DNA of 64,000 nucleotides from an uncultured Pseudomonadota bacterium (GTDB lineage Bacteria > Pseudomonadota > Gammaproteobacteria > Steroidobacterales > Woeseiaceae), in contig CAVQKY010000005.1 in NCBI GenBank assembly GCA_963713215.1, forward strand, positions 823,151-887,150. Direction: 5' to 3'. Shown here one piece after another: positions 6,806-44,366 of the stretch. Under the pieces are notes generated by a model, which did no database searches, was not told the DNA's origin, and saw only the letters and a program-made list of their open reading frames with translations. A program made the translations under genes and the position numbers. Every line of letters starts with the position of its first letter. Positions within the stretch are counted from its first letter, which is position 1.

Positions 6806-8434
6806 CTACACCGGGTTGGCAATCGTACCGTTGCAGATGGGCGTGAAGGCCGTGAGGCTGTCCTGCAGCGCCGCGTTGCCGAGGCCGTGCGCCGGGAAGA
6901 CCTGGCCGAACAAGCCCTGTTCCCCGTGCAGCGCCATGTAGTTCAGCAACACGGTATTGACGAGCAACGGGACGTTGTTGGCGGCGGGTGTCGCCGCGCG
7001 CTGGACTGCGCCGTCCGAGCTCATGTAACCCAACTGCTGATGCTGCGCGATGTCCGCGGGGGTTGCGCCGATGATCGTCGGCCGTCGGCCCGGGTTATAG
7101 ACGAGGAAGAAGGATGCAGCCGTCGACGAGTTGTCGCTGTCCCATTCGCCCTTGCCCCTGCCGTCGACGGTATCGTCGATCGCGCCGTTCGAGGACAGCG
7201 ACCCGTCTGAGAAGACATAGATCATCACGGGCGTGTTGAGCCTCGCGGCGTATTCGAGCACGGCACCCATGCAGCGACCGGCACGGAAGTCCTTGACCTC
7301 ACCTTCCGCACGGCGCCCGCCATGGTAGTCATAGCCGCCCATCTCGATGCAGCCGGCGCCGGCGTAGCCGTTCATGACCAGCTTCATGATCGAAGCCGTC
7401 TTCTGGAACTCGCGCGCATCGGTGTTGTTGGCATTGAATTCAGCGTCGGTGAATATACCGCTCGGGCCGACGATCACCGGGTCGAGGCCCGGATCGATCG
7501 GGACGCCGCCGAAGCGGTCGGCGATGTCGGCCGCTTTCAGGTAACCGCAACGCACCAGTTCCTTGATGACGGCGTCATTGGTCACCTGCGTGTTGACCCG
7601 ATCCATCTTGGCGTCTGTCAGGCGATAGATCGACTCCATGACCGCCGTCGCGTCTTCTTTCGACAGGATACCGACGAGGTCACCCGTATCCACGAGATTC
7701 GTCACGTCGGACGGCCGGTCGACCTTGGTCGGACGAAGTTCGGGATCGTACAAGGACATCGGCAGCATCGAGTTGCCGCCGGAGTCGGTATTCTCCGAGC
7801 CCGCGAGCGTCAGGATGGAGCCGTTGGCGCCAGCGCCGCCCGCACCGGCACGCGCGATGCCATACATCGGGTTGTGCGGGTTGTTGCCGGTGTCGTTATC
7901 GGAGCGGGCCGGAATGACGGCGCCGTTGATGAATGATTCGTTGCCCGGCGTCAGCATCTGCGCGATGCCCCGGCGGAAGGCCGAATCGAGATGAAAGCCG
8001 AGCCCCAGGTCGAAGTTCGCATAAGGCTGGCCGCTGACCGGGTCGTTGAGGCCGGGCACCATGTCGCCGGGCAGGCCTTGGCGCGAGTAGCCGATCGTGG
8101 CCAGGAAGTCCGACTGTCCCCCTTCCTGTCCGATCAGCACGTTCGAACCCGCAATGTTCGCGCCGCCCGCCAGGTCAAAACAGATGAAGGGAATCTTGCC
8201 GGCGCCGTTCGTCGCGATCTGGCAGGGGTTTATGAGCAGCGCGTCGAGGTCCGACGACAATGCCGCATAGGCTTCGCGCGGATTCGAGAACAGGCTCAAT
8301 ATCCCGGCGCTCGTCGCGTAGGCGGCACCCGACATGAAGCCCTGTGCTACGAATTGGCGGCGTGTGACAGGACGCGGATGATCGCTGTGGAACTGTGGCG
8401 CGTCCCAGTCCCGTTTATTTCGTCTCTTGGCCAT
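6806..8434 (-). CDS. Tat-exported protein of unknown function, distantly DUF1501/DUF1552-like
   Basis: ORF 6806..8503. Start at MAKRRNK (8434) has AAGGAAG 7 nt upstream. Twin-arginine signal VTRRQFVAQGFMSGAAYA. Motifs FICFDLAGGANIAGSN, EMGGYDYHGG and YVFSDGSL resemble the GGxDxxN / GGWDTH / SEFGR blocks of DUF1501 as I remember them. Confidence 0.5.
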   Translation of the reverse strand: MAKRRNKRDWDAPQFHSDHPRPVTRRQFVAQGFMSGAAYATSAGILSLFSNPREAYAALSSDLDALLINPCQIATNGAGKIPFICFDLAGGANIAGSNVLIGQEGGQSDFLATIGYSRQGLPGDMVPGLNDPVSGQPYANFDLGLGFHLDSAFRRGIAQMLTPGNESFINGAVIPARSDNDTGNNPHNPMYGIARAGAGGAGANGSILTLAGSENTDSGGNSMLPMSLYDPELRPTKVDRPSDVTNLVDTGDLVGILSKEDATAVMESIYRLTDAKMDRVNTQVTNDAVIKELVRCGYLKAADIADRFGGVPIDPGLDPVIVGPSGIFTDAEFNANNTDAREFQKTASIMKLVMNGYAGAGCIEMGGYDYHGGRRAEGEVKDFRAGRCMGAVLEYAARLNTPVMIYVFSDGSLSSNGAIDDTVDGRGKGEWDSDNSSTAASFFLVYNPGRRPTIIGATPADIAQHQQLGYMSSDGAVQRAATPAANNVPLLVNTVLLNYMALHGEQGLFGQVFPAHGLGNAALQDSLTAFTPICNGTIANPV

Positions 8435-8460: not shown

Positions 8461-10956
8461 TTACTGAACGAGCGTTACTGCGCTGCCCAGCGTTGCGGCG
8501 CAAACGCCCTTCGCTATGGAACGCGTATTCGAGCCGCCGGCGATCAGGCGATCGATAAGGTCCGCTGGCCGCCCATCCGGCCCGCCGCCGGCATTGTTGG
8601 CAAGTTCCTGGTACACCGTCGCGTACGTAGGCTGGGTGGCGATCTGTGGCCCCGCCGGCGCATTTCCCACTATCTTCGTGATCAGCGGATTAACCAGGAG
8701 GTCGCGACTGGCACCTGCGAATGCCGTGCCCGGTGCGGCATTGAAATTGAAGCCCGGGAAATAGGTGGCCGCCTGCGGGCCATCCACGAGAGCATTGCAG
8801 TACGAGATCGCGAGCTGCGCGATGGCGACCTGGTGCGAGGACAGGAACGTGTTGACGTCCTCGACCGCAGGCAGTGATTGCCGCAGCTCCTGGTATGTCA
8901 TATCGACGTCGACCGAGTCGGGGTCGACGCCCGTGACCTTGGCAAAGGTCGCGTTGATCTCGTCGAACGTGCGTACGCCGATATGTGGTGCAGGCGGCAG
9001 GTCCGACGGCGAGATGACCAGTGTCGGATCGGGCGCGCGGCTGAAGCTCGCACTGCCGAGCCGGTCGAACGTGAGGAAGAACTCGTCGTCCTCCGGTCCT
9101 TTCTCCAGCGGCAGCACGGCGCCGAGCCTCGACAGCGGCTGCCCGAGTTCCTCGAACAATTGCGCGGACAAGGTGCTGTCCAGCGTGGCATAGGTTTGCC
9201 CGACCGGCGCTTCCTTGCCGTTCATTGCCACACGCAGACCCTCGATGTCGATCCCTTCCGGGGTCGAACCGTCGAGCGTCAGGAAATGCGGCCTGTCGAA
9301 CAGGTAGGCATACGTGTCGTACTGCGAGACCTCGAACAGGATGTACGAGGATTGCGGAGCCGCCTGGATGATCTCGGAGATGTCGAACAACAGGTAGAAC
9401 TTTTCACCTACGCCCACGTCGAAATTCTGCAGAACCTGTTCCTGGGTCAGCGCACGGTCGTGCACTGCGACCAGGCGGAGCGTACCCTGCCACAAGCGAT
9501 CGCCGGACGCCTCGTTACCCAGAACGAACGCGAACGTGTCCTGCCAGTCGATGACCGTACCACCCGGCACCGGGTCGACCTGCGTAACGAGTTCGCCGTT
9601 CACGTAAATGCGCCTGCCATCCGTGGGGCTGTAAGTGGCAACGACGTGCTGCAGTGTCGCTTGCAATACTTGGTCCGCGCTCGGCGTCGATAGCGCCGGG
9701 TCGCCGTTCAGGCTCGTTTCAGTCGTCCGCAACAGGAAATTGTAGTCGTACAGGGTCTGTTGCAGCGTGAGGTTGCGGGCTTCCGTGCCCGCTGAATAGC
9801 TCACGATGCGAGCCTCTTCCTGAGCCACATTACCGGGAATTACCCAGGCTTCGACGGAGAATTGTCCGCCCGATTCCTGGATAAAATCGAAAATCTTGCG
9901 GCTCGCGGTCGTCGAGCCCTGGGCCTTGCCGTTATTGATGGTGATGCCCCAGCCGCCGTACCACTCGACGTCCCCCGAGAGGTTGAGATCGAGCGCCGGT
10001 GCGACGCCGCTGGTGTCGTAAGCCACCAGGCCACTGCCGGTCTTGAATTCCCACAGCGCGATCTGGTCGCTCTCGTAGCGATTGCCACCGGAAGCTATCG
10101 TACCGTCGACGAGCCGGAGCGCCTTGCTGGTCACGAGGCTCGGATCGATCGTGGTCAGCGAGATTGCGCCTGCATAGGCCTGGATCGCGGCCAGCATGGT
10201 CGCCGCGTCGTTCGAGCAGCTGTTCGTCCAGCAGTTGTGGAATTCGACGCCAAGGCGCAGGACGAAGCGTGAGTTCGCCGGATCGTCGAGATTCATCTTG
10301 GACTTTGCCGCGTCGTAGGCAACGTTGATGTCGGGATCCGCAAAGTACGGCTGGATGGCATTACCGGATTCCGAACTGTGACACCCGGCGCAATGCTCGG
10401 TCAGCAGACCATGGATACCCGCGAAAGACGGCGGGCCGAACGCGTCGGCCGGATAATTCCGGCTGGCTCCCGGGTCCACAGAACTGGGCGGCAATAGCAC
10501 GATCTCGCGGCCGCCGCCCGCAGCGTCACCAAGCCAGTTCTCGATCCACGTCGTCATGACGGAGGAGCAGACGCTCGGCTCGGAGTTCCAGCAGTTGTGG
10601 CCCTGGCCGACTTTTTCCACCATGCGCGACAAGGAAGGCTGCGACATGTCGGTGACCGTCACTGCCTCGTCGTGTGCCATGTTTATGTCGTCGAAACGGG
10701 CGAACATAGGCGACTGGCCGGTGGTTTCGTTGTGACACCCGCCGCAGGTTGCCTGATTTTGTACCGGTAGCCAGAACTCGGTCAGGAATTTCTGGACGCC
10801 GTCATCACGCGGCGACGCCGCGCCCGAGTATGTGATCGTGTTGTTGCCGGTACCGCCCTGCGGTATCGGCATGTCCTCTGTCTGGGCACCACCGCCGCAG
10901 GCCGAGACGAGCAGGCCAAGAGCGGAAACCAGCAGCACGCTTCTTGCGTTAATCAT
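8461..10956 (-). CDS. lipoprotein with two CXXCH haem c motifs, a LamG-like jelly-roll and an unknown C-terminal region
   Basis: ORF 8461..10956, AGGAGAAGG upstream. Lipobox LLVSAC|GG. CGGCH at nt 10746..10732 and CAGCH at 10392..10378. Central region (WGITINNGKAQG..FSVEAWVIP..RIYVNGELV..LGNEASGDRLWQGTLRLVAVHDRAL) looks like Laminin_G_3. Confidence 0.6.
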   Translation of the reverse strand: MINARSVLLVSALGLLVSACGGGAQTEDMPIPQGGTGNNTITYSGAASPRDDGVQKFLTEFWLPVQNQATCGGCHNETTGQSPMFARFDDINMAHDEAVTVTDMSQPSLSRMVEKVGQGHNCWNSEPSVCSSVMTTWIENWLGDAAGGGREIVLLPPSSVDPGASRNYPADAFGPPSFAGIHGLLTEHCAGCHSSESGNAIQPYFADPDINVAYDAAKSKMNLDDPANSRFVLRLGVEFHNCWTNSCSNDAATMLAAIQAYAGAISLTTIDPSLVTSKALRLVDGTIASGGNRYESDQIALWEFKTGSGLVAYDTSGVAPALDLNLSGDVEWYGGWGITINNGKAQGSTTASRKIFDFIQESGGQFSVEAWVIPGNVAQEEARIVSYSAGTEARNLTLQQTLYDYNFLLRTTETSLNGDPALSTPSADQVLQATLQHVVATYSPTDGRRIYVNGELVTQVDPVPGGTVIDWQDTFAFVLGNEASGDRLWQGTLRLVAVHDRALTQEQVLQNFDVGVGEKFYLLFDISEIIQAAPQSSYILFEVSQYDTYAYLFDRPHFLTLDGSTPEGIDIEGLRVAMNGKEAPVGQTYATLDSTLSAQLFEELGQPLSRLGAVLPLEKGPEDDEFFLTFDRLGSASFSRAPDPTLVISPSDLPPAPHIGVRTFDEINATFAKVTGVDPDSVDVDMTYQELRQSLPAVEDVNTFLSSHQVAIAQLAISYCNALVDGPQAATYFPGFNFNAAPGTAFAGASRDLLVNPLITKIVGNAPAGPQIATQPTYATVYQELANNAGGGPDGRPADLIDRLIAGGSNTRSIAKGVCAATLGSAVTLVQ

Positions 10957-10967
10957 GATCCCTTCTC

Positions 10968-12152
10968 CTACTGGCCCATGCAGTGGACGGCCGAATCGGC
11001 GAACACCTGCTTCATGCGGTAGCCCGAACTACGGAACGTGTCCGTAATCTGATCGACTGCGTCACGGTCTGTCTGGTCTTCCGGGCTGCGCAGGCACACG
11101 GCACGGAACACTTTCCTGACTTGGCACGCGGCGAACGCGTAGCTGTTGGCAAGTTCCTCGCCCATCGTTTTCGCACCATTGCCTTCGCCCGGCAGCGCCG
11201 GATCGAAGCCCAGGTAGGCGTTCTGCCCGCTACGCCAGTAGTTTTCCCAGGAGTCGTCCGTCGTCCGAAAGCCCTGCGGAAAATTCAGGTCGTTGTTGAA
11301 ATATTTCGGCTGCACGTTGCCGGGCGTGTACTCGAGCGCTCCGGTATCGACGTTGTAGTTGTAATACGCGAAGGCGCCCGCCAACGGGTCCATTCCTGTG
11401 TGGCAACCGACGCAGTTATTCAGGAACAGCCGGCTGTCGCCGCCGGGGCTGCGGCTCACATCCTGGCGTATACGGTCGGGCGGCAGCCTCGGATCATGCA
11501 TCTGCTCCATGTCGTTGCACATGTGATTCAAGAGCGTGAAGCGGAACATTGCCCGGTTGGTGCCGGCGACGAAAAACGCCTCGGATGCCGCGCGTGAGGT
11601 CATGACGCCCGCCGTCGCGGTCGACGGCAGGCCATTTATCGAGGATTGGGACGTGCTTACCAGCGCGTCCCGGAGGTTCACATTTTCCGCCTCGAGTTGT
11701 TCGTAGTGGAGATTGTTGCTTGCCGAAGGCGCTGCGCTCACCGCACCCGGCGCCCCGACGTAGGAAAGGTCCGCGGACAGCAATGTATTGAACGGCACGT
11801 CGTCCCGCACCATGCCGATAACGGTGGCGACGTAGTCGTTGAGAGGGACGAATACCGAGCGATCACGGTTCGTCCACGGTGCGGCGAAATTTTTCAGCGT
11901 GACGTTATAGAAGTTCTCGTCGGTCATCGCGATATAAGCCGCACCCTGTGCATCGCTGGCCAGGAGTGAGGACTCCATCTGCGCGAGCACCGCATCGGAC
12001 GGCGGAACGCCCGCGAGCCGATCATGAATACGGCGAGCCTGTTCGCGAGGTCCGGCGACGGCCGGGGTGGCGAGAGCGGCGATCAGTATCGTCGCCAGCG
12101 CGGCACGCGCGAGTTTGATCACACCGGATTGCGTCCTTGTCCATGTCTTCAT
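10968..12152 (-). CDS. secreted single-CXXCH protein, DUF1588/DUF1592 (planctomycete PSD)-like
   Basis: ORF 10968..12164, ATG 12152 (MKTW) preferred. Signal ARAALATILIAALATPAVAG. CVGCH at nt 11414..11400 in the context NNCVGCHTGMDPLAGAFAYYN, like the C..CH..mDP.G block of DUF1588-type proteins. The stop is 11 nt before the next gene. Confidence 0.5.
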   Translation of the reverse strand: MKTWTRTQSGVIKLARAALATILIAALATPAVAGPREQARRIHDRLAGVPPSDAVLAQMESSLLASDAQGAAYIAMTDENFYNVTLKNFAAPWTNRDRSVFVPLNDYVATVIGMVRDDVPFNTLLSADLSYVGAPGAVSAAPSASNNLHYEQLEAENVNLRDALVSTSQSSINGLPSTATAGVMTSRAASEAFFVAGTNRAMFRFTLLNHMCNDMEQMHDPRLPPDRIRQDVSRSPGGDSRLFLNNCVGCHTGMDPLAGAFAYYNYNVDTGALEYTPGNVQPKYFNNDLNFPQGFRTTDDSWENYWRSGQNAYLGFDPALPGEGNGAKTMGEELANSYAFAACQVRKVFRAVCLRSPEDQTDRDAVDQITDTFRSSGYRMKQVFADSAVHCMGQ

Positions 12153-13005
12153 AGCGACTCTCATTACGAAACGTCACGTCTGCCGCGCCACAATCAATCC
12201 CGATAGAACGCGCACAGACAGAAGTATTAACAGCGTGCCTAAACCCGGTATTTTTTGCCGTGATTACACTCACAGTACCGTCACGCCTTCCCGACCTTGC
12301 CGCCGTGTCTGTCTTTTGTGTTTCTTTGACGGCCTGCTCCCGTAAAGCAATAGCTGTGCCAGTCCACGCCCGGCCGCCGCCGGGACCGATTTTCTTCCCG
12401 ACAATCATCGGCTTGCCGCGTCCGCCAAGTCGGAGTCCGAAATCGAGATATGTCAAGCCTTTGTCTCAACAAACACACATCACAATGACGCAAAAAAACT
12501 AAACTATTGATTTGTATACGCTTGACGGATGTCGCGGAAGTCCGACAGCCGCGTCGATACCCGACAATGTATGTCAGACTGCACGTAAGCTACTGGTCGC
12601 ATGCGGATTTCCGCGGGACAAAGTCGCGGCCATCCGCGCGAAATCGGGAAGTGACAGCATGGGAGGAACCCTTTCGCCGGATGCCGCGTGTCAGCGAACG
12701 GGAAGACATCGCAATGGCAATGTCGGATATTTTCGACGATACACGGCGGGCCGCGCGTCTCTTATACTGCACCGGAACCCGAAACCGGCCGGATGCAAAA
12801 TTGCTTTGCGATTTCTCTGGTTACGATGGGGCGACAGGCTTTGTGATCGCGTTAACGGTAGTGTCGGTCGCCAGTGTTCACTATTACGAATTGTTCAAAC
12901 GGCGCTGTGAGCCGCGTACCCGTGTGCAGGAAAGGCCGTGCCCTTCATGACAACGTGGTATGAAAAATGCAGTTGTTTAGCCGTTTGAATTCGAGGGAAG
13001 GTCCC

Positions 13006-15756
13006 ATGAACAGCGAGTCGATTCACACGCACACAGGCATTATGTGCAGGGCGGTGCGAGCCACTCTCCTGTTCTCGTGTGCGTCCGCGATCGTTGCTTG
13101 TGACGGCGCGAACCAGGGCGTGCAGATCGGCGACGGGCAGTCACCGGACCCGGTCGTGGTCGATTTCCCGATCGCTTACATCCGTGTGCCTGTGCCGGTC
13201 GACGACAACGGTGCGTTCGAGCAAATGGACCTGCGTGAGCAGATCACCTTCGATGTCGGCGGGGAGCTGTATGTCAAGCCGCGGGCCTCGACGACGGCGA
13301 CCCCCGTCAACGTGACTGGCGAGATCACAGAAGGCAACGGCGCCGTCCGCGATGTCGAAATCGCCTACGATGGCAGTGCGGTCCTGTTCGCGATGCGCAC
13401 CCCGTTCGATCCTAACCTCGACGACGAAGACCAGGTGACCTGGAACCTGTGGGAATACACCTTCGATGACCGGGCGTTGCGCCGGATCATTGCGTCCGAC
13501 CTGTCAGCCGAGATCGGCCATGACATCATGCCGAAATACCTGCCCGACGGCCGAATCGTTTTCGCCTCGACGCGCCAGACCCGTTCGCAGGCGATTCTCC
13601 TCGACGAGGGCAAGCCGGCCTTCGTCGCCGTCGACGAGAACCGGAACGAGTACGCGTTCAACCTGCATATCATCAACCGGGACGGCACCGGGATCGAACA
13701 AATCACCTTTAATCAGAGTCATGACCTGGACCCGGCCGTGCTGGCCGACGGTACGATCGTGTTCACGCGATGGGACCACGCGGGGCCGAACAACGACCAG
13801 ATGAACCTGTACCGCGTCAACCCGGACGGCTCGGGCCTGGAACTCCTGTACGGGAACGAAAGCCACGACACCGGGACCGGCGGCGAAACGATCCAGTTCA
13901 CGCAGCCGAGGCAGGCGGAAGACGGCCGGATCTTTTCGCTCATCCGGCCGTTCACGAACACGGAGGGCGGTGGCGAGGTCATTTCCATCGACACGCCGCG
14001 ATACGTCGAAAACACACAGCCGCTCGCGGAGAACATCGGTGTGCTGGACGGTCCGGCGCAACAGGACGCCACGGTCAACGAGGTCATTACCGTGCCCGGC
14101 GTGCCCTCGCCGGGAGGACGCTATGCGTCGGTCTACCCGATCCAGGACGGTACGGGCCGGATGCTGGTCAGCTGGGCGCAATGTCGCCTCATCGAAGCGA
14201 ACGTCGATCTCGACCCGGGCACGCCGGAAATCGAACCGGTGATCGTCCCGTGTACCGAAGATCGGCTGGACGACGTCTTCGTCATCGATCCGGACAACAT
14301 CGTGCCGATCCCGGACGGCAGTTTCCTGGTCGCGCCGCCCTTGTACGGCATCTGGATCTACGACCCGCGGGACAAGACGCAGCAGCCGGTCGTACCAGGC
14401 GAAGAAGGCTGGATGTTCACGGAAGTGGTATCCGCGGACCCTCGCCCGACACCCCCGGTCGTGGTCGATGGCATCAACGATTTCGAATTTGATAGCTCGC
14501 TTGGCCAGGACGGCGAAGCGGTCCTGCATATCCGCAGCGTCTATGACTTCAACGGTACGGCGGTGGTCGACATCGAGGCGATGGCCGACCCGACGCTGAC
14601 CCCCGCGGAAAGCCGCCCGGCCCGGTTTCTCCGGGTCGTGAAAGCGGTCTCCCAGCCTGACGACGATTTACTCGATATCGACGACACCGCATTTGGCGTC
14701 ACGACGGCAAACGGCATGAGGGAAATCGTGGGATACACGATGATCGAGCCCGACGGCTCGGTCATGACCAGGATTCCGGCCAACACGGCCCTCATGATCA
14801 GCGTGCTTGACGCCAACGGCAAGCGCGTCACGGCGCGTCACGACAACTGGATTTCGGCCCGGCCCGGACAGGTGATCGAGTGCAGCGGCTGCCATGAACC
14901 GGCCACCGGCTTCTCGCACGGACGCCGCGACGCGTTCGAGTCCGCCTGGGCCGGTGCACCGGTAGCGGGGGTTCCGTTCCCGAATACGAATCCCGCGTTG
15001 TTCGTCGGCGACATCGGCGATACGATGGCTGAAACCCGCGCGAGAATCAGCTGCGCGAACGACGGCTGTGCCTCGATCGAGCCGTCGATGAATATCGAGT
15101 TCACCGATGTCTGGACAGATCCGGCCGTCGCCGTGCCAAGTCCGGACTTCAGTTACCTGTACACGGACCTTGTGACACCCGCCCCGACTATCGTGGCGTG
15201 CCTACAGGACTGGCACGCCGCCTGCCGCACGATCATCAACTACGAAACGCATATTCATCCGCTCTGGAGCCTGCCGCGACTCGTCTTCGACGAGCTGGGC
15301 AATCCGGTACTCGATGTGAATGGGAACCAGGTCAGCGCCAATTGCCTGAACTGTCACACACCGATCGACCCGGCGGACGGCATGACCGTGCGGGTCCCGG
15401 CAGGCCAGCTCGAACTGCAGGACGGGCCGTCCCCGGACGAGCAGCTGCATTTTCACGCCTATCGCGAATTGCTAGTTACTGATAATCTTCAGGAAGTGGT
15501 CAACGGAGCCCTTGTGGATGCGCAGCAGCAGGTTGGCGTCGATGAAGACGGCAACCCGATACTCGACGTGATCCGCATTGCGCCATCCGCCAGTACCGCG
15601 GGGGCAAGCGCGTCCGGCGATTTCTTCGGCCGGTTCGAAGACCCTGACGATTTGCACTACAACATCTTGTCGCCGGCGGAGAGACGCTTAATTGCGGAAT
15701 GGTTGGATGTCGGAGCCCAGTACTACAACAATCCCTTCGACGCCCCAGCCAATTGA
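13006..15756 (+). CDS. lipoprotein with TolB/PD40-like beta-propeller repeats and two C-terminal CXXCH motifs (HzsA-like layout)
   Basis: ORF 12967..15756. ATG 13006 follows GAGGGAAGG. Lipobox SAIVAC|DG. Repeated YDGSAVLFAMR, LPDGRIVFASTR, NRDGTGIEQITF, LADGTIVFTRWDH, NPDGSGLELLYG, AEDGRIFSLIRP. CSGCH at 14881..14895 and CLNCH at 15343..15357. Confidence 0.6.
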   Translation: MNSESIHTHTGIMCRAVRATLLFSCASAIVACDGANQGVQIGDGQSPDPVVVDFPIAYIRVPVPVDDNGAFEQMDLREQITFDVGGELYVKPRASTTATPVNVTGEITEGNGAVRDVEIAYDGSAVLFAMRTPFDPNLDDEDQVTWNLWEYTFDDRALRRIIASDLSAEIGHDIMPKYLPDGRIVFASTRQTRSQAILLDEGKPAFVAVDENRNEYAFNLHIINRDGTGIEQITFNQSHDLDPAVLADGTIVFTRWDHAGPNNDQMNLYRVNPDGSGLELLYGNESHDTGTGGETIQFTQPRQAEDGRIFSLIRPFTNTEGGGEVISIDTPRYVENTQPLAENIGVLDGPAQQDATVNEVITVPGVPSPGGRYASVYPIQDGTGRMLVSWAQCRLIEANVDLDPGTPEIEPVIVPCTEDRLDDVFVIDPDNIVPIPDGSFLVAPPLYGIWIYDPRDKTQQPVVPGEEGWMFTEVVSADPRPTPPVVVDGINDFEFDSSLGQDGEAVLHIRSVYDFNGTAVVDIEAMADPTLTPAESRPARFLRVVKAVSQPDDDLLDIDDTAFGVTTANGMREIVGYTMIEPDGSVMTRIPANTALMISVLDANGKRVTARHDNWISARPGQVIECSGCHEPATGFSHGRRDAFESAWAGAPVAGVPFPNTNPALFVGDIGDTMAETRARISCANDGCASIEPSMNIEFTDVWTDPAVAVPSPDFSYLYTDLVTPAPTIVACLQDWHAACRTIINYETHIHPLWSLPRLVFDELGNPVLDVNGNQVSANCLNCHTPIDPADGMTVRVPAGQLELQDGPSPDEQLHFHAYRELLVTDNLQEVVNGALVDAQQQVGVDEDGNPILDVIRIAPSASTAGASASGDFFGRFEDPDDLHYNILSPAERRLIAEWLDVGAQYYNNPFDAPAN

Positions 15757-16564
15757 GTTTTCGCTGAGCGCGCGGCACATAGCGCGATACGTCGTTGAAA
15801 AGACGAACGAATGGCGCGCGCATGCACGGTCGTTGATTTGTTGCGTCTGCATCATTCTTGCCGCGGCCGGGACGGGTCATGCGGCCGAGGACCCGTTGCG
15901 GCAGGTCGCGGTTGCCGACCCGTATCTCGAGTTGCATACGGGGCCGGGGCGCGGCTACCCGGTTTTTCACGTCGTCGAACGCGGCGAAAGCGTGTCGGTC
16001 GTGTTACAGCGGACGGACTGGTACCTCGTGCGCACGGACCGGGCGATCGAAGGCTGGGTGAATCGCGACCAGATGGAACTGACCCTGACCGACGATGGCG
16101 GGAATTTCGTGGTCGATCGGGCTGCGCTCGAGGATTTCACGAACGCGAAGTGGGAGGTCGGCGTACTGGCGGGTGATTTCGGCGGCGCCAACGTCGTCTC
16201 CCTGTATGGGAGCTATTCGCTGAATCCGCATGTTTCGGTCGAAGCGTGGGGTTCACAGATCCTGGGCAATTTTTCGAACGGCTGGATCGGTAATGTTAAT
16301 CTCGTTCACGAGGCGTTCCCGGACTGGCGCATTTCGCCGTTCTTCACACTGGGGGCGGGCTTCATCCACACGGAACCGAAATCGACCATCGTGCAGGGGG
16401 AGGACCGGACGGACCAGCTCGGGCACGCAGGCGCAGGATTCCGGATCTATGCCACCCGGCGCTTTCTGTTGCGCGCCGAATTCAAGAGCTATGTCGTGTT
16501 CACGAGTCGCGACGACAATGAGGAAGTAGAGGAATGGAAAGTCGGGTTCGCGTACTTTTTCTGA
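15692..16564 (+). CDS. outer-membrane small beta-barrel protein with N-terminal SH3b-like domain
   Basis: ORF 15692..16564. The start is uncertain: ATG 15692 overlaps the upstream gene by 65 nt, and in-frame TTG 15833 is an alternative. Signal-like LICCVCIILAAAGTGHA. PYLELHTGPGRGYPVFHVVERGESVSVVLQRTDWYLVRTDRAIEGWV is SH3b-like. The C-terminus alternates like barrel strands and ends VGFAYFF. Confidence 0.55.
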   Translation: MRNGWMSEPSTTTIPSTPQPIEFSLSARHIARYVVEKTNEWRAHARSLICCVCIILAAAGTGHAAEDPLRQVAVADPYLELHTGPGRGYPVFHVVERGESVSVVLQRTDWYLVRTDRAIEGWVNRDQMELTLTDDGGNFVVDRAALEDFTNAKWEVGVLAGDFGGANVVSLYGSYSLNPHVSVEAWGSQILGNFSNGWIGNVNLVHEAFPDWRISPFFTLGAGFIHTEPKSTIVQGEDRTDQLGHAGAGFRIYATRRFLLRAEFKSYVVFTSRDDNEEVEEWKVGFAYFF

Positions 16565-17214
16565 TCGCCTTCGCGGTCCTCGTGAGCGGATGCGCGGCGA
16601 CCAAGAACCTGTTCGGGATAGGCGACGATGAGACGGCGCCCCCGACAGCGGAGCCGCCGGGCCAGGTGATCAACCCGGAAGTCGAACGCCGGGAGATCGA
16701 GGAGCCCGCGATCGACCGCGAAGACTTCGAACTCGGCGCGTTTGTCGGCGTCATGAGCGTCGAGGATTTCGAGAGCGGCGTCGTGTACGGCGCTCGCCTT
16801 TCCTACCACCTGACCGAGGGTTTTTTCGTCGAAGGCACGATCGGCCAGACGGACGCCGGCAAGACGAGTTTCGAACTCCTGTCGGGCGGCGCGCAACTTA
16901 TTTCCGACAGCGAACGACGTCTTACCTACTACAATCTGAACGTCGGCTACAACATCCTGCCCGGCGAAGTGTTCATCGGGGAAGGGCGGGCGTACAACAC
17001 GAATCTGTACGTCATCGCGGGTCTCGGCTCGACGGAATTCGCGGGTGACGACAGGTTCACGGTAAATTTCGGGGCCGGTTACCGCTTCCTGCTCACGGAC
17101 TCGGTCGCGCTGCACCTCGATTTTCGCGATCACCTGTTCGATATCGACCTGTTCGGCGAGGAGAAGACCGCGCACAATCTCGAGGCGCACCTCGGGGTTA
17201 CGGTGTTCTTCTAG
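16534..17214 (+). CDS. outer-membrane beta-barrel lipoprotein (same barrel type as the preceding gene)
   Basis: ORF 16534..17214. Lipobox VLVSGC|AA, acidic linker, then an alternating-strand barrel ending HLGVTVFF. It overlaps the upstream gene by 31 nt. Confidence 0.6.
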   Translation: MESRVRVLFLIAFAVLVSGCAATKNLFGIGDDETAPPTAEPPGQVINPEVERREIEEPAIDREDFELGAFVGVMSVEDFESGVVYGARLSYHLTEGFFVEGTIGQTDAGKTSFELLSGGAQLISDSERRLTYYNLNVGYNILPGEVFIGEGRAYNTNLYVIAGLGSTEFAGDDRFTVNFGAGYRFLLTDSVALHLDFRDHLFDIDLFGEEKTAHNLEAHLGVTVFF

Positions 17215-17281
17215 GGCCGGAGGGGTTATCTTCTGACGGACTTCACGGTACCCGGCTGCACGCAGGCGATAAAGTGAGGAA

Positions 17282-17527
17282 ATGACAGTGACTATTCGAG
17301 CAATTGGCCGACATTGGCTCAGCGCAGGCCTGGTCGTGCTTCTGGCAGGCTGCGGCGGGGGCATCGAGCCCTGGGTCAAGCCCTATGAGCGCGACCGGCT
17401 GGCCGACCCCATCATGGCGCTCGACGGCGACCCGGTGTCCTCGTCCTACATCCAGCACGTCTATGAAGCACGCGAAGGCGCCCGCGGCGGCGAAGGTGCC
17501 GCAGGCGGCGGCTGTGGCTGCAACTGA
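17282..17527 (+). CDS. DUF4266 family small lipoprotein
   Basis: ORF 17282..17527. Lipobox VLLAGC|GG. The family-typical C-terminal GGGCGCN is present (..AAGGGCGCN). Confidence 0.7.
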   Translation: MTVTIRAIGRHWLSAGLVVLLAGCGGGIEPWVKPYERDRLADPIMALDGDPVSSSYIQHVYEAREGARGGEGAAGGGCGCN

Positions 17528-17534
17528 CGGGCGC

Positions 17535-18659
17535 ATGAACCTGCTTCGCCGGATTCTTTGCCTCGGCAGCCTGTCGGCGCTTGCCGGCAGTGCCGTTGCG
17601 GGCGTCTTGCCCGACGACCGGGGTGACGTGATGTATCACCGGTACGTCGGCGGCGGCGTCGAGATCGACGGCCCGTCCGTGCTCGTGCGCAAGAAAGTGG
17701 GTTCCAGTTTTTCCTTCGTCGGCAACTACTACGTCGACTACGTCAGTTCGGCGTCCATCGACGTCGTCACCCAGGCGAGCCCGTACACGGAGCAGCGCAA
17801 CCAGTGGTCGCTTGGCGTGGATTATCTGCGCGGCAATACCACGATGAGCGCCAACTACACGAGTTCGGAGGAATCCGACTTCGACGCGAAGACCTATGGA
17901 TTCGCAGTCAGCCAGGACATGTTCGGCGACCTGACGACCCTGACACTGAGCTATGCCTACGGCGACGACCTCGTCCGGCGGACCGACGATCCGGCCTTCG
18001 CGGAGCCCAATACACGCCAGGTCTATGGTATCGGCCTGACACAGATCCTCACCCGGGATCTGATCGCGACACTCAATTTCGAGACCGCGACCGACGAGGG
18101 CTTCCTGAACAATCCCTACCGCTCGGTGCGCTACGTCGACCCGACCGCGGACCTGGGCTACAGCTGGGAGCCGGAGCTCTATCCGCGCACCCGCACCAGC
18201 AACGCCCTGGGCCTGCGCGCACGCTATTTCCTGCCGTATCGGGCGGCGGTCGAACTGGAAGTACGGGGTTACACGGACACCTGGGACATCGACGGCCTGA
18301 TGGGGTCGCTCATGTACGTACACCCCTGGGGGCCGTTCACGTTCAGCGCCAAGTATCGATACCATGGACAGAACAGCGCGCATTTTTATAGTGACAATTT
18401 TCCGCGTTCCCAAGCGACGAATTTTCGCGGCCGCGACAAGGAGCTGAGCGAGCTCTACAGCAATACTTACAGTTTCAGGGCGAGTTACCAGTTCGTCGAC
18501 GAGAACCGTGGCTGGAGCTTTGTGAAGAGGGGCTCGGTTACCGCATCGTATGACCGCCTGTCCATCAAGTATCCCGACTTTACGGACCTGATCGCGGGCG
18601 GCGGCGCTTACATCCTAAAGGCAAACGTGTTCCAGCTTTACGTCTCGTTATGGTACTGA
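17535..18659 (+). CDS. DUF3570 family outer-membrane barrel protein
   Basis: In-frame ATG 17535 of ORF 17304..18659, 7 nt after DUF4266. Signal MNLLRRILCLGSLSALAGSAVA. YHRYVGGGVEIDGPSV..NYYVDYVSSASIDV fits my memory of DUF3570. Ends aromatic (YVSLWY). Confidence 0.65.
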   Translation: MNLLRRILCLGSLSALAGSAVAGVLPDDRGDVMYHRYVGGGVEIDGPSVLVRKKVGSSFSFVGNYYVDYVSSASIDVVTQASPYTEQRNQWSLGVDYLRGNTTMSANYTSSEESDFDAKTYGFAVSQDMFGDLTTLTLSYAYGDDLVRRTDDPAFAEPNTRQVYGIGLTQILTRDLIATLNFETATDEGFLNNPYRSVRYVDPTADLGYSWEPELYPRTRTSNALGLRARYFLPYRAAVELEVRGYTDTWDIDGLMGSLMYVHPWGPFTFSAKYRYHGQNSAHFYSDNFPRSQATNFRGRDKELSELYSNTYSFRASYQFVDENRGWSFVKRGSVTASYDRLSIKYPDFTDLIAGGGAYILKANVFQLYVSLWY

Positions 18660-18708
18660 TGCCACCTTAGGATGAAGTACGCCAAAGTTTGGGGAGTGTA
18701 GCGCTAGG

Positions 18709-19269
18709 GTGGCAACGCTCGCAGCCATGTTCCTCGCCGCCCTTTTCGCCGCCGGTATTTTCTATTTCAACCGGCTCGTGCGCGGCCGGAACCGGGTGGA
18801 TACGGCCTGGAGCGACATCGACGTCCAGCTGCAACGCCGGCACGACCTCGTGCCGCGCCTCGTCAGCGCCGTGCGTCAATACGCGGCCTACGAACGCGCG
18901 ACGCTGGAAGCCGTCACCGCCCTCCGCGAGCAGGCCATGCGGGCGGCCGACGTCGAGGCACGCGGCGAACTCGAAGCTGAACTGAGCGGGGGCATGGACC
19001 GGCTCATCGCGCTCGCAGAGAACTACCCGGACCTCAAGGCCAGTGCGAACTTCCTCGGCCTGCAGCAGGAACTCGTGCAGACCGAGAATTACCTGCAGTT
19101 CGCGCGCCGTTACTACAACGCGTCGGTGCGCGACTACAACACGGCGATCGAATCGGTGCCGGGCAATATCGTGGCAAGCCTGTTTCGATTCAGCGCACGG
19201 CCGTTTTTCCAGAAGGCCGCGGACGAGGTGGCGAACGTGCCGCCGGTCAGGCTGGGGTCCACGGAATGA
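18709..19269 (+). CDS. lemA: LemA family membrane protein
   Basis: ORF 18709..19269 (GTG start). N-terminal TM, then NRLVRGRNRVDTAWSDIDVQLQRRHDLVPRLV..NYPDLKA..YYNASVRDYNTAIESVPGNIVA, typical of LemA. Confidence 0.85.
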   Translation: MATLAAMFLAALFAAGIFYFNRLVRGRNRVDTAWSDIDVQLQRRHDLVPRLVSAVRQYAAYERATLEAVTALREQAMRAADVEARGELEAELSGGMDRLIALAENYPDLKASANFLGLQQELVQTENYLQFARRYYNASVRDYNTAIESVPGNIVASLFRFSARPFFQKAADEVANVPPVRLGSTE

Positions 19270-22291: not shown

Positions 22292-22311
22292 AGGAATCTG
22301 ACGGAGACGAC

Positions 22312-43196: not shown

Positions 43197-43327
43197 GGGT
43201 ACCCACACATCCTTTGGCCAAAAAATAATCCCAGCGCGGGGCCGGGACACAGAGCAGGGCATTTTACCGGCTAATAATCGCAATTGCCAAGGGGAATCCG
43301 CGGGAACTGCGATAAACTGCGCGCCAT

Positions 43328-44362: not shown

Positions 44363-44366
44363 TCGC

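What the first reader, a model, noticed from the sequence alone, without database searches (positions are those of the whole stretch)
13006..15756. Beta-propeller plus dihaem lipoprotein with a hydrazine-synthase-alpha-like domain order
Seen: lipobox IVAC|DG. At least six DG-containing PD40/TolB-like repeats lie in aa ~120-320. A long middle region follows, then CSGCHEPATGFSHGRRD (nt 14881) and CLNCHTPIDPADG (nt 15343). Known: HzsA of anammox bacteria is an N-terminal propeller followed by two haem c domains, and HzsA-related proteins of unknown role exist outside anammox organisms. Inference: this may be one of those relatives, with a periplasmic redox or small-molecule-handling role. I did not see the Tyr that follows the HzsA haem motif, so any relationship is only architectural.
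Basis: inference. Interest (0 to 1): 0.65.

Follow-up and report, generated by a model that had tools for sequence, protein, structure and literature searches.

The report
HzsA-related dihaem lipoprotein gene cluster
This Woeseiaceae gene encodes a real, distant relative of the hydrazine-synthase alpha subunit (propeller plus two haem c sites), with no sign that it makes hydrazine; it always sits in the same eight-gene cluster of cytochromes, outer-membrane proteins and a flavin-carrying protein whose job is unknown.

Summary
Window 13006-15756 (+) encodes a 916-aa lipoprotein with lipobox IVAC|DG. It has a six-bladed PD40/TolB-type propeller (aa ~56-476), an HZS_alpha middle domain ending in CSGCH (nt 14881), and a C-terminal domain with CLNCH (nt 15343).

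- Pfam HZS_alpha scores 58 bits against a cut-off of 26.6.
- A family profile hits HzsA (PDB 5C2V_A) at E=8e-18.
- A confident AlphaFold model (pLDDT 91) matches HzsA over its full length (Foldseek E=7e-28). TolB propellers come next at 1e-10.

It is not a hydrazine synthase. Tyr591 and Cys303 are not conserved, there is no beta/gamma partner, the organism is a Woeseiaceae, and the NCBIfam equivalog scores 63 bits against a cut-off of 800. The distal His of haem alpha-II (His772) is kept, as H884.

Orthologues in Hahella, Aliikangiella and others are already named "HzsA-related protein", so the family is known but has no function.

The new point is context. An eight-gene core is conserved from Woeseiaceae to Oleiphilus, Hahella, Aliikangiella, Exilibacterium and Steroidobacteraceae while the flanks differ:
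- one operon holds a PSCyt3/PSD2-like monohaem protein, a LamG dihaem lipoprotein and a TAT-exported orphan;
- the divergent operon holds the HzsA-related gene, an SH3-barrel OMP, a second OMP, DUF4266 and DUF3570 (a known ApbE flavinylation substrate).

I read it as the haem-propeller subunit of an uncharacterised envelope redox system.

The parts
13006..15756 (+). HzsA-related dihaem c lipoprotein, 916 aa (the finding)
   Evidence: ORF and start. Pfam HZS_alpha and PD40. HzsA in PDB by sequence and by fold. More than 4,700 family representatives at 50% clustering.
13006..13101 (+). Lipoprotein signal peptide, lipobox IVAC32
   Evidence: Read directly from the sequence. C32 is kept in 149/150 homologues. 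The +2 residue is Asp in the Woeseiaceae-type sequences (21/150) and Gly in most others (86/150).
13171..14433 (+). Six-bladed PD40/TolB-type beta-propeller (aa ~56-476)
   Evidence: About 25 strands in the AlphaFold secondary structure. Foldseek hits to TolB at E~1e-10. PD40 HMM. Many invariant polar residues, including R190, H221, Q232, N236, S238, D240, R255, S286.
14635..14898 (+). HZS_alpha middle domain ending in haem motif 1 (C626-S-G-C629-H630, nt 14881-14895)
   Evidence: Pfam PF18582, 58.3 bits. It is the most conserved domain of the protein. H612, W615 and H638 are also invariant.
15343..15357 (+). Haem motif 2 (C780-L-N-C783-H784) in the C-terminal cytochrome-c-like domain
   Evidence: Invariant in 150 homologues.
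15655..15657 (+). H884, aligned with HzsA His772 (distal ligand of haem alpha-II)
   Evidence: HMMER alignments put it opposite chain residue 745 of 5C2V_A, which is His772 with the +27 offset. Kept in 136/150 homologues.
10968..12164 (-). Divergent gene 1: secreted monohaem protein, 398 aa, with a PSCyt3/PSD2 (DUF1588/DUF1585)-like C-terminal half
   Evidence: One invariant CxxCH inside PDRIRQDVSRSPGGDSRxFLNxCxxCHxxMDP. PSD2 at 24.4 bits against a cut-off of 25.8. Seven of nine orthologues hit PSD2 and PSCyt3 weakly.
8461..10956 (-). Divergent gene 2: lipoprotein, 831 aa, with two CxxCH modules and a Laminin_G_3 domain
   Evidence: Pfam Laminin_G_3, 76.7 bits. Two CxxCH motifs present in all six aligned orthologues (CGxCH and CxxCH), HNCW motifs, and an N-terminal lipobox LLVSAC|GG.
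6806..8434 (-). Divergent gene 3: TAT-exported orphan protein, 542 aa
   Evidence: Twin-arginine motif TRRQFVAQGF. No Pfam, NCBIfam or PDB sequence match. It is the best-conserved protein of the cluster, 51-63% identity in distant taxa.
15707..16564 (+). SH3 domain fused to an outer-membrane beta-barrel; overlaps the 3' end of the HzsA-related gene
   Evidence: Pfam SH3_3 at 33 bits and OMP_b-brl. Start candidates. No terminator-like site anywhere between 12000 and 19400.
16534..17214 (+). Outer-membrane beta-barrel protein (OMP_myx_plus), 226 aa, with a lipobox-like LVSGC
   Evidence: NCBIfam TIGR04565 at 162 bits and Pfam OMP_b-brl. Overlaps the preceding gene by 31 nt.
17282..17527 (+). DUF4266 small lipoprotein ending in invariant GGGCGCN (CXC motif)
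   Evidence: Pfam PF14086, 82.8 bits. Alignment. The CXC motif is described in PMC8238504.
17535..18659 (+). DUF3570 protein, 374 aa, a member of a family shown to be flavinylated by ApbE
   Evidence: Pfam PF12094, 87.5 bits. Invariant YYxDxVSSAS(I/V)DV, a variant of the [S/T]GA[S/T] flavinylation motif. Flavinylation of the Chlorobium DUF3570 was shown experimentally in PMC8238504.
12165..13005 (.). 840-nt divergent intergenic region with blocks conserved among Woeseiaceae
   Evidence: Alignment of 18 loci. No Rfam match. One weak promoter-like site at 12227-12254.

Best explanation
The gene encodes a periplasm-facing lipoprotein that is a true but distant homologue of hydrazine synthase subunit alpha. 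It has a six-bladed PD40-type propeller, an HZS_alpha middle domain carrying haem 1 (C626xxC629H630), and a C-terminal cytochrome-c-like domain carrying haem 2 (C780xxC783H784). Haem 2 is probably bis-His ligated through H884, as haem alpha-II is in HzsA.

I find no feature that supports hydrazine synthesis. The Tyr591/Zn(Cys303) site of haem alpha-I and the beta/gamma subunits are both missing.

I propose that it is the haem-propeller (substrate-handling) subunit of an uncharacterised envelope redox system. That system is encoded by a conserved two-operon cluster:
- one operon holds a PSCyt3/PSD2-like monohaem protein, a LamG dihaem lipoprotein and a TAT-exported orphan;
- the other holds the HzsA-related gene, two outer-membrane barrels, DUF4266 (CXC) and DUF3570 (FMN carrier);
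- most taxa other than Woeseiaceae add a TlpA/ResA-like thioredoxin and often ApbE.

The proposed working is as follows. A small molecule is bound and turned over at haem 1, at the interface of the propeller and the middle domain. Haem 2 relays electrons to or from the partner cytochromes and the thiol/flavin module.

What is shown: the homology, the fold, the motif conservation and the gene linkage. What is inferred: haem attachment, the ligands, the partners, the direction of electron flow and the substrate.
For: Homology to HzsA:
- Pfam HZS_alpha at 58.3 bits against 26.6.
- phmmer against 5C2V_A at 3e-9, and the family profile at 8e-18, with collinear pieces.
- The AlphaFold model (pLDDT 91, pTM 0.88) has HzsA as its top Foldseek hit at E=7e-28, TM 0.49/0.58, over the full length. 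TolB follows at about 1e-10.

Conservation:
- Both CxxCH motifs, H612, W615 and H638 are invariant. H884 is kept in 91% and H221 in 97% of 150 homologues that go down to 36% identity.
- H884 aligns with HzsA His772.

Not a hydrazine synthase:
- NCBIfam hydrazine_alpha equivalog scores 63 bits against a cut-off of 800.
- The position that aligns with Cys303 is Glu here. There is no Tyr after the first haem motif.
- No CCP/MauG-like beta/gamma gene appears in the window or in the eight related contigs whose called genes were read.
- The organism is a Woeseiaceae.

Gene linkage:
- All eight core genes keep the same order and orientation in nearly every one of the 80 Woeseiaceae/related loci that has enough flank (one exception, L067).
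- The same holds in six distant loci: Oleiphilus, Hahella, Aliikangiella, Exilibacterium, a Steroidobacteraceae MAG and L089. There the outer flanks (LemA, methyltransferase) are not kept. A seventh contig (P0404) shows the five core genes it reaches, plus ApbE and a TPR gene.
- The forward genes overlap or lie close together, and no terminator-like site separates them.

Link to a redox module:
- DUF3570 is an experimentally shown ApbE flavinylation substrate. It normally clusters with DUF4266, a thioredoxin-like protein and ApbE (PMC8238504).
- ApbE is adjacent or nearby in three of the distant clusters.

Expression:
- Related metatranscriptome contigs (85-99% identical) lie on both operons.
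Against: - No experiment exists on any member of this family, and no substrate clue was found.
- I could not read the model coordinates, so the ligands of haem 1 are open. H630 could be a canonical proximal ligand with H612 or H638 on the distal side. Alternatively, the site could be HzsA-like, with H638 taking the place of Tyr591.
- If haem 1 is six-coordinate bis-His, the protein may be only an electron carrier and not a catalyst.
- The window itself has neither the thioredoxin gene nor ApbE.
- The DUF3570 motif is SSAS, not the canonical [S/T]GA[S/T].
- Conserved linkage shows a shared function, not physical contact.
- All named members of the full-length group are Gammaproteobacteria, so part of the synteny could be shared ancestry.
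- The RNA evidence comes from assembled contigs of related organisms, and DNA carry-over is possible.
Confidence: 0.6

Rival explanations
1. The HzsA-related protein works only with the three divergently transcribed proteins (monohaem PSCyt3/PSD2-like, LamG dihaem, TAT orphan) as an oxidising enzyme. It would feed electrons from a periplasmic substrate into the respiratory chain. On this view the DUF4266/DUF3570/thioredoxin genes are a maturation or repair module, for example reducing the CxxCH thiols as ResA/CcmG do, and are not part of the electron path.
For: - The thioredoxin in the related clusters is ResA/TlpA/DsbE-like. That family is known for reducing apocytochrome and copper-site thiols (established knowledge).
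- Woeseiaceae have lost this thioredoxin from the cluster yet keep the cytochromes.
- Five predicted c-type haems lie in three adjacent genes.
- The hosts are aerobic heterotrophs (own knowledge).
Against: - DUF4266 and DUF3570 are kept in every cluster, including those without the thioredoxin. That is hard to explain for a maturation factor alone.
- DUF3570 carries FMN, which is an electron-transfer cofactor.
Confidence: 0.2
2. It performs hydrazine-synthase-like nitrogen chemistry in an aerobe. At haem 1 it would bind, condense or detoxify hydroxylamine or NO, as a functional analogue of the HzsA alpha-I site.
For: - It is a full-length homologue of HzsA, with the middle domain the most conserved part.
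- It keeps the His772 equivalent, which the published non-anammox clade I homologues lack (PMC12758564).
- The position of the Zn ligand Cys303 is His, Glu, Asn or Gln, followed by an invariant Ser and a largely conserved His. A metal site next to the haem is therefore not excluded.
Against: - Tyr591 and Cys303 are absent.
- No beta/gamma subunit is present to make hydroxylamine from NO.
- The equivalog HMM scores far below its cut-off.
- No hydrazine dehydrogenase or other anammox gene is in the window.
Confidence: 0.08
3. It is mainly a structural, TolB-like envelope protein. It would tether or organise the two co-encoded outer-membrane barrels, and the haems would be structural or a simple electron relay with no catalytic site.
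For: - After HzsA, the next-best structural matches are TolB.
- It is a lipoprotein followed directly by an SH3-barrel OMP and a second OMP.
- Three invariant His near haem 1 could make that haem six-coordinate.
Against: - The TolB equivalog HMM scores 15 bits against a cut-off of 343.
- The propeller carries many invariant polar residues that a scaffold would not need: R190, H221, Q232, N236, S238, D240, R255, S286.
- Both haem motifs are invariant.
Confidence: 0.1
4. It is a propeller-gated peptidase of the S9/tricorn type.
For: Foldseek hits to S9 peptidase and tricorn propellers at E 1e-9 to 1e-7. Precomputed faint Tricorn_N hits in some homologues.
Against: - These matches cover only the propeller, with TM below 0.3 on the target.
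- No alpha/beta-hydrolase or other peptidase domain was found by Pfam or NCBIfam.
- The C-terminal 440 aa match HzsA instead.
Confidence: 0.02

Closest known systems
Hydrazine synthase alpha subunit, HzsA (Kuenenia stuttgartiensis, PDB 5C2V chain A)
   Same: - Same domain order: six-bladed propeller, middle domain ending in a CxGCH haem site, then a C-terminal cytochrome-c-type domain with a second CxxCH and a distal His (His772 = H884 here).
- It is the best sequence hit and the best fold hit in the PDB.
   Different: - About 15% identity, and about 135 aa longer.
- No Tyr591. The Cys303 position is Glu here (His in most of the family). H612 and H638 are extra invariant His residues.
- It is a lipoprotein of a Woeseiaceae, not an anammoxosome protein.
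- No HzsB/HzsC partners. It has different neighbours.
Database family 'HzsA-related protein' / Pfam HZS_alpha domain proteins of Gammaproteobacteria (Hahella, Aliikangiella, Aliiglaciecola, Neptunicella, Oleiphilus and others)
   Same: These are full-length orthologues at 41-50% identity, with the same motifs and the same eight-gene cluster. The window protein is a member of this family.
   Different: - The Woeseiaceae version has Asp rather than Gly at lipoprotein position +2, and its cluster lacks the TlpA-like thioredoxin gene.
- None of these proteins has a known function.
- The Oleiphilus copy was once annotated as 'type II secretion system protein C'.
Non-anammox HzsA homologues, clades I-IV of Hagglund et al. 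2025 (Planctomycetota, Desulfobacterota; PMC12758564)
   Same: They are distant HzsA homologues outside anammox bacteria. They keep the haem alpha-I CxxCH but lack Tyr591 and Cys303, and a canonical haem pocket is predicted for them.
   Different: - Those were selected for sitting next to fused beta-gamma (CCP/MauG-like) homologues and FG-GAP/CRTAC1 genes, in anaerobes. Clades II-III lack haem alpha-II, and clade I lacks the His772 equivalent.
- Here there is no beta-gamma or FG-GAP gene, both haem sites are present, the His772 equivalent is kept, and the hosts are Gammaproteobacteria.
- That paper's main text names no gammaproteobacterial taxa.
DUF3570 / DUF4266 / thioredoxin-like / ApbE flavinylation-associated clusters (Meheust et al. 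2021, PMC8238504)
   Same: DUF3570 and DUF4266 (with the C-terminal CXC) lie next to each other. A TlpA-like thioredoxin and ApbE are present in the orthologous clusters of other taxa.
   Different: - The paper left the function open and does not mention HZS_alpha in the text I could search.
- Here the module is fused into an operon behind an HzsA-related cytochrome and two OMPs.
- The first flavinylation motif reads SSAS, not [S/T]GA[S/T].
TolB and other PD40 beta-propeller proteins
   Same: The propeller fold matches (Foldseek E~1e-10), and one PD40 repeat scores above threshold.
   Different: There is no TolB N-terminal domain, and TIGR02800 scores 15 bits against a cut-off of 343. This propeller is attached to two haem domains.
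Planctomycete-type PSCyt3/PSD2 (DUF1588/DUF1585) cytochrome proteins (relevant to the neighbouring 398-aa gene)
   Same: Weak, collinear PSCyt3 then PSD2 matches in 7 of 9 orthologues, with a single CxxCH. Their function is likewise unknown (PMC5615132).
   Different: The matches are below the Pfam gathering score. The protein is much shorter than the planctomycete multi-domain proteins, and its TAT-exported neighbour matches no Pfam family.

Membership tests
Hydrazine synthase alpha subunit (NCBIfam NF052339, equivalog) | Whole-protein HMM score at or above the curated cut-off (800 bits) | tested here: not met
   63.3 bits, with two short stretches matched.
Hydrazine synthase alpha subunit | Domain order: six-bladed propeller, then a middle domain with haem alpha-I, then a C-terminal domain with haem alpha-II | tested here: met
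   Full-length Foldseek match to 5C2V_A at E=7e-28. Collinear HMMER pieces. Secondary structure of the model.
Hydrazine synthase alpha subunit | Tyr591 as proximal ligand of haem alpha-I, four residues after the CxxCH His | tested here: not met
   The sequence after H630 is EPATGFSH. Position +4 is Ser or Thr across the family.
Hydrazine synthase alpha subunit | Cys303, which binds zinc together with the CxxCH His587 | tested here: not met
   It aligns with E285. In the family this position is His 85, Asn 22, Glu 19 and Gln 15 of 150. According to PMC12758564 it is also not universal in anammox bacteria.
Hydrazine synthase alpha subunit | His772 as distal ligand of the bis-His haem alpha-II | tested here: met
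   H884 aligns with chain residue 745, which is His772. It is kept in 136/150 homologues. Actual ligation cannot be tested here.
Hydrazine synthase complex | Co-encoded beta and gamma subunits (seven-bladed propeller plus CCP/MauG-like dihaem protein) | tested here: not met
   No such gene in the window or in the eight related contigs whose called genes were read.
Hydrazine synthase complex | Host is an anammox planctomycete (Brocadiia) | tested here: not met
   The closest genomes are Woeseiaceae, Gammaproteobacteria.
Pfam HZS_alpha (PF18582) domain proteins / 'HzsA-related protein' | HZS_alpha HMM above the gathering score | tested here: met
   58.3 bits against 26.6, profile positions 8-98 of 98.
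Pfam HZS_alpha (PF18582) domain proteins / 'HzsA-related protein' | Full-length orthology to proteins that carry that name in public records | tested here: met
   41-50% identity over the full length to the Hahella, Aliikangiella and Oleiphilus proteins, in the same gene cluster.
c-type cytochrome (periplasmic, Ccm-matured) | CxxCH motif(s) in a protein exported by Sec | tested here: met
   Two invariant CxxCH motifs and a lipoprotein signal peptide.
c-type cytochrome (periplasmic, Ccm-matured) | Covalently bound haem | not testable with these tools
   Needs haem staining, a pyridine haemochrome assay or mass spectrometry of the purified protein.
TolB (TIGR02800) | Equivalog HMM score at or above 343 bits, and the TolB N-terminal domain | tested here: not met
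   15 bits. Only the propeller matches by fold.
HzsA homologues of clades I-III (PMC12758564) | Gene next to a fused beta-gamma homologue and an FG-GAP/CRTAC1 gene | tested here: not met
   The neighbours are different families in all loci read.
DUF3570 flavinylation-associated cluster (PMC8238504) | DUF3570 and DUF4266 (C-terminal CXC) encoded together | tested here: met
   PF12094 at 87.5 bits and PF14086 at 82.8 bits. Invariant GGGCGCN.
DUF3570 flavinylation-associated cluster (PMC8238504) | Thioredoxin-like protein and ApbE in the cluster | tested here: not met
   Neither was found among the window ORFs scanned. The thioredoxin is present in the six non-Woeseiaceae clusters. ApbE is adjacent or near in L085, L088 and the P0404 contig.
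DUF3570 flavinylation-associated cluster (PMC8238504) | [S/T]GA[S/T] flavinylation motifs in DUF3570 | tested here: inconclusive
   The first site is an invariant SSAS (Gly replaced by Ser). The second is xxA[S/T], and reads SGAS in one taxon. Flavinylation itself cannot be tested here.

The most novel reading that the evidence does not exclude
The eight-gene core, plus thioredoxin, ApbE and TPR genes in many taxa, may encode a previously unrecognised envelope redox machine of aerobic Gammaproteobacteria. In it, an HzsA-type haem-propeller enzyme would turn over a small nitrogen or oxygen species such as hydroxylamine, NO or a peroxide. Electrons would be routed thiol to flavin to haem: DsbD-type reductant, TlpA-like thioredoxin, DUF4266, FMN-DUF3570, then the cytochromes. 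This gammaproteobacterial clade keeps both haem sites and the His772 equivalent, so it could be closer to the ancestral form from which the alpha subunit of hydrazine synthase was recruited than the clades described so far.
Probability: 0.2. Interest if true: 0.8.

Novelty: new variant of a known kind. Interest (0 to 1): 0.55.

Why it matters
Hydrazine synthase is one of the most unusual enzymes of the nitrogen cycle, and its origin is debated. A 2025 study (PMC12758564) found only distant homologues in anaerobic Planctomycetota and Desulfobacterota, and those were picked because they sit next to beta-gamma homologues.

This gene belongs to a large group. The whole family has more than 4,700 representatives at 50% clustering, and 538 of them score below E=1e-30. 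Every named member I saw comes from aerobic marine or soil Gammaproteobacteria. The group keeps both haem sites, has no beta-gamma partner, and is locked into a different, strongly conserved gene cluster.

That cluster ties together five families that have no assigned function:
- HZS_alpha;
- PSCyt3/PSD2;
- a TAT-exported orphan;
- DUF4266;
- DUF3570, for which only flavinylation is known.

Cultured hosts exist (Hahella, Oleiphilus, Aliikangiella), so the question can be put to genetics and biochemistry directly. For annotation, it also warns against reading HZS_alpha hits in Woeseiaceae and similar genomes as anammox potential.

Tried and rejected
- First AlphaFold run. With 59 close homologues (66-83% identical) it gave an unusable model, pLDDT 53.8. 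Pooling three homologue searches into 150 sequences that go down to 36% identity fixed it, pLDDT 91.
- Model coordinates. They are not exposed to the scripts. I could not measure haem-ligand geometry or test whether residues 285/287 sit next to H630.
- Genome-collection scan. It returned only Woeseiaceae-like loci at 60% identity or more, which are too close to separate functional linkage from plain synteny. Distant contexts came instead from searching again with an Oleiphilus protein and a 37%-identical representative and looking up their contigs.
- TAT-exported neighbour. I suspected a DUF1501/DUF1552-like (alkaline-phosphatase superfamily) protein, from motifs recalled from memory (FICFDLAGGAN, GGYDYH). 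Pfam at E<=10 on nine orthologues, NCBIfam, and a PDB profile search all found nothing. I drop the idea as unsupported.
- Hydrazine synthase proper, TolB and S9/tricorn peptidase. All rejected; see the membership tests.
- Rfam on the 840-nt intergenic region. No match. The terminator scan found none in 12000-19400.
- Supplement of the flavinylation paper. The stored copy is cut and holds no DUF3570 rows or HZS_alpha entries. I could not check whether its authors had such clusters in their tables.
- Literature searches. I searched for HzsA-related or hydrazine synthase together with Woeseia, Hahella and other genera. Nothing describes this cluster.
- Antisense ORFs inside the gene (for example 13504-14529, minus strand). 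These are high-GC artefacts with the wrong codon-position GC pattern.

Full report
**1. What is there**

The longest ORF is 12967-15756 on the + strand, 929 aa. A GAGGGAAGG Shine-Dalgarno-like stretch lies a few bases before that ATG, and the closest homologues are 916 aa long. I number from that Met.

- Residues 14-32 form a lipoprotein signal peptide with lipobox IVAC32|DG.
- Codon-position GC is that of a real gene, GC3 0.79. The antisense ORFs inside it are high-GC artefacts.
- Within the whole 64-kb window, the only real-gene ORFs that carry CxxCH are this gene and its two upstream neighbours.

**2. Is it more than chance**

The gene has more than 4,500 relatives in the 90%-clustered collection. 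In the 50%-clustered library it has 4,709 representatives at E<=1e-3, 2,005 at <=1e-10 and 538 at <=1e-30.

I aligned 150 homologues that go down to 36% identity. The following residues are conserved:
- Invariant: both CxxCH motifs, G628, H612, W615, H638, and the Cys pairs 393/416 and 732/740.
- Kept in 97%: H221.
- Kept in 91%: H884.
- Kept in 87-88%: H239 and H287.

The HZS_alpha middle domain is the most conserved part of the protein.

**3. Family and fold**

Pfam gives HZS_alpha at E=1.2e-15, 58.3 bits against a gathering score of 26.6. It also gives one PD40 repeat, 25.2 bits against 20.9.

Against PDB sequences, the single protein finds only HzsA (5C2V_A) at 3e-9. The family profile finds it at 8e-18. 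The matched pieces are collinear: propeller blades, the GGxYxSxYPL blade, the middle domain up to CSGCH, and the C-terminal helix.

A first AlphaFold run with a shallow alignment failed, pLDDT 54. With the 150-sequence alignment the model is confident: pLDDT 91, pTM 0.88. Its secondary structure shows about 25 strands between aa 56 and 476, which makes six four-stranded blades. Each blade has an xDGx turn, at residues 122, 181, 248, 306, 381 and 437.

The propeller, however, spans about aa 113-476 and not 120-320.

Foldseek against the PDB puts HzsA first: E=7e-28, probability 1.00, TM 0.49/0.58, aligned over the full length. TolB propellers follow at about 1e-10, and S9-peptidase propellers at about 1e-8. 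Both of those match only the propeller.

**4. Why it is not a hydrazine synthase**

The published key residues are given. The SEQRES numbering of 5C2V_A is offset by 27, since its CSGCH His is chain residue 560 and that residue is His587.

- Tyr591, the proximal ligand of haem alpha-I, has no counterpart. Here H630 is followed by EPATGFSH, and position +4 is Ser or Thr in the family.
- Cys303, the zinc ligand, aligns with E285. That position is His in 85 of 150 homologues.
- His772, the distal ligand of the bis-His haem alpha-II, does align with H884.
- The NCBIfam equivalog model scores 63 bits against a cut-off of 800.
- No HzsB/HzsC-like gene (propeller plus CCP/MauG-type dihaem) is in the window or in any related contig I read.
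- The organism is a Woeseiaceae, a gammaproteobacterium.

**5. What is already known**

Orthologues in Hahella, Aliikangiella, Aliiglaciecola, Neptunicella and Aestuariibacter carry the database name 'HzsA-related protein' or 'HZS_alpha middle domain-containing protein'. The Oleiphilus messinensis copy (44% identical) was once called 'type II secretion system protein C'.

Hagglund et al. 2025 (PMC12758564) described non-anammox HzsA homologues in four clades, from Planctomycetota, Desulfobacterota and a few others. They chose them because they sit beside fused beta-gamma homologues and FG-GAP genes. Those homologues lack Tyr591 and Cys303. Clades II-III lack haem alpha-II, and clade I lacks the His772 equivalent. 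The main text of that paper names no gammaproteobacterial taxa.

The protein family is therefore known but has no function. The gammaproteobacterial branch differs from the described clades in its partners, and in keeping both haem sites and the distal His.

**6. The neighbourhood**

The gene heads an operon of tightly packed or overlapping genes, with no terminator-like site between them:
- an SH3 domain fused to an outer-membrane barrel (15707-16564);
- an OMP_myx_plus barrel (16534-17214; TIGR04565, 162 bits);
- DUF4266 (17282-17527);
- DUF3570 (17535-18659).

Three genes are transcribed divergently, across an 840-nt spacer:
- a secreted 398-aa protein with one CxxCH and weak, collinear PSCyt3/PSD2 (DUF1588/DUF1585) matches (10968-12164);
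- an 831-aa lipoprotein with two CxxCH modules and a Laminin_G_3 domain (8461-10956);
- a 542-aa protein with a twin-arginine signal that matches no Pfam, NCBIfam or PDB sequence (6806-8434).

I ran tblastn with the window's proteins against all fetched loci. All eight genes keep the same order and orientation in nearly every Woeseiaceae locus that has enough flank (L067 is the one exception). The same is true in six distant loci, where the HzsA-related protein is only 35-50% identical: Oleiphilus, Hahella, Aliikangiella, Exilibacterium, a Steroidobacteraceae MAG and L089. In those six, the outer neighbours of the window (LemA, a methyltransferase) are not found, and the called genes on either side differ from locus to locus. 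A seventh contig shows the five core genes it reaches, plus ApbE and a TPR gene.

The six non-Woeseiaceae clusters add a ResA/TlpA-like thioredoxin between the second OMP and DUF4266. Three clusters have ApbE adjacent or near. Several add a set of TPR proteins. The window has neither the thioredoxin nor ApbE among the ORFs I scanned.

**7. Link to a known module**

Meheust et al. 2021 (PMC8238504) showed by experiment that a Chlorobium DUF3570 is flavinylated by its ApbE at [S/T]GA[S/T] motifs. [quoted passage not shown] In some genomes the module is fed by DsbD. They left the function open.

Here DUF4266 ends in an invariant GGGCGCN. DUF3570 has an invariant YYxDxVSSAS(I/V)DV, followed eight residues later by xxA[S/T]. 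This is a variant of the published motif, so flavinylation is plausible but not shown.

**8. Mechanism proposed**

Shown:
- an exported lipoprotein that is homologous to HzsA over its full length;
- two invariant haem c attachment motifs;
- a conserved distal His for the second haem;
- many invariant polar residues on the propeller;
- obligatory linkage to two other predicted c-type cytochromes, a TAT-exported protein, two OMPs and the DUF4266/DUF3570 pair.

Inferred:
- The Ccm system attaches both haems in the periplasm.
- Haem 2 (H784/H884) is a low-spin relay.
- Haem 1, at the interface of the propeller and the middle domain, is the working site, as in HzsA but with ordinary His ligation.
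- Electrons pass between it, the neighbouring cytochromes and the thiol/flavin module.

The direction of flow and the substrate are unknown. The module draws on thiol-derived reducing power in the clusters that have a thioredoxin, so I lean toward reduction of a periplasmic oxidant over energy-conserving oxidation. That lean is weak.

The main open structural question is the ligation of haem 1. Three invariant His residues (612, 630, 638) and the His-rich 285-287 segment, which lies at the position of the HzsA zinc ligand, allow three readings: a canonical five-coordinate site, a six-coordinate site, or an HzsA-like rearranged site. I could not read the model's coordinates.

**9. Expression**

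The window's own genome is not in the indexed runs; the best DNA run holds 18% of the sampled words. Contigs from three metatranscriptomes (soil and ice) lie on both operons at 85-99% identity. Some 150-nt pieces have only 1-2 mismatches inside the HzsA-related and LamG genes. This suggests that close relatives transcribe the cluster. It is weak evidence, because the data are assembled contigs and DNA carry-over is possible.

**10. Verdict**

The protein is a member of the already named, uncharacterised HzsA-related family. It shows none of the features expected of a hydrazine synthase, and HZS_alpha hits in such genomes should not be read as anammox potential.

The added value is the conserved two-operon cluster. 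It joins this family to the DUF3570 flavinylation module and to PSCyt3/PSD2-type cytochromes, and it occurs in cultivable hosts where it can be tested.

Interest is moderate, 0.55. It is a robust orphan system with a bearing on the origin of hydrazine synthase, but the family is known by name and I could not resolve its function.

Noticed in passing
window 12165-13005: The 840-nt spacer between the divergent operons has several blocks conserved across 18 Woeseiaceae loci. Examples are TATGTCAAnnnnnTGTC (~12449), the inverted-repeat-like TGTCnCnGAAnnnAGACA (~12530), TGTCGnnnnTnTnnnACATTACA (~12722) and TTGTGATnGnGTTAACGGTA (~12846). The recurring TGTC/GACA motifs suggest regulator binding sites. 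There is no Rfam match.
   Followed up: partly
window 6806-8434 (-): The TAT-exported 542-aa protein is the best-conserved member of the cluster (51-63% identity in distant taxa, against 35-50% for the HzsA-related protein). Yet it matches no Pfam, NCBIfam or PDB sequence. It may be the real catalytic subunit.
   Followed up: partly
window 16534-17214 (+): The OMP_myx_plus barrel protein starts with a lipobox-like LVSGC, so it may be both lipidated and a beta-barrel. Its gene overlaps the preceding SH3-barrel gene by 31 nt.
   Followed up: no
window 17214-17282, compared with L084-L089: Woeseiaceae clusters lack the ResA/TlpA-like thioredoxin gene that sits between the second OMP and DUF4266 in all six non-Woeseiaceae clusters. 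No ApbE was found among the window ORFs I scanned.
   Followed up: partly
window 13102-13104 (residue 33): Lipoprotein position +2 is Asp in the window protein and 20 other aligned homologues, but Gly in most of the rest (86 of 150). By the E. coli Lol rule, Asp would mean inner-membrane retention. The final location may therefore differ between lineages, or the rule may not apply here.
   Followed up: no
L084 10001-12745 (Oleiphilus messinensis CP021425.1): The orthologue in this complete genome was deposited as 'type II secretion system protein C'. That name is unsupported by any domain found here. RefSeq now calls it a PD40 domain-containing protein.
   Followed up: yes
L085 16109-22148, L084 16373-22578, L088 1-3812: In Hahella, Oleiphilus and the Steroidobacteraceae MAG, a block accompanies the cluster: a ~160-200-aa orphan plus large TPR proteins (~640 and ~1000 aa, and a third of ~205 aa in Hahella and Oleiphilus, with YbgF/BamD-like repeats). 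A similar pair appears on the P0404 contig. The block is absent from the window.
   Followed up: partly
window 24-1343 (+) and 43271-44479 (-): Two further sizeable ORFs (439 and 402 aa), the second with gene-like codon-position GC, have no Pfam match. Apart from 18709-20969 and 21910-25159 below, most of the rest of the window scanned is ordinary housekeeping: rpoD, dnaG, ribonucleotide reductase, waaA, SLT and DegP-like genes.
   Followed up: no
window 18709-20969 (+) and 21910-25159 (+): A LemA-DUF2207 pair and a TldD/PmbA pair lie downstream. They are syntenic only within Woeseiaceae and are not part of the conserved cluster.
   Followed up: yes
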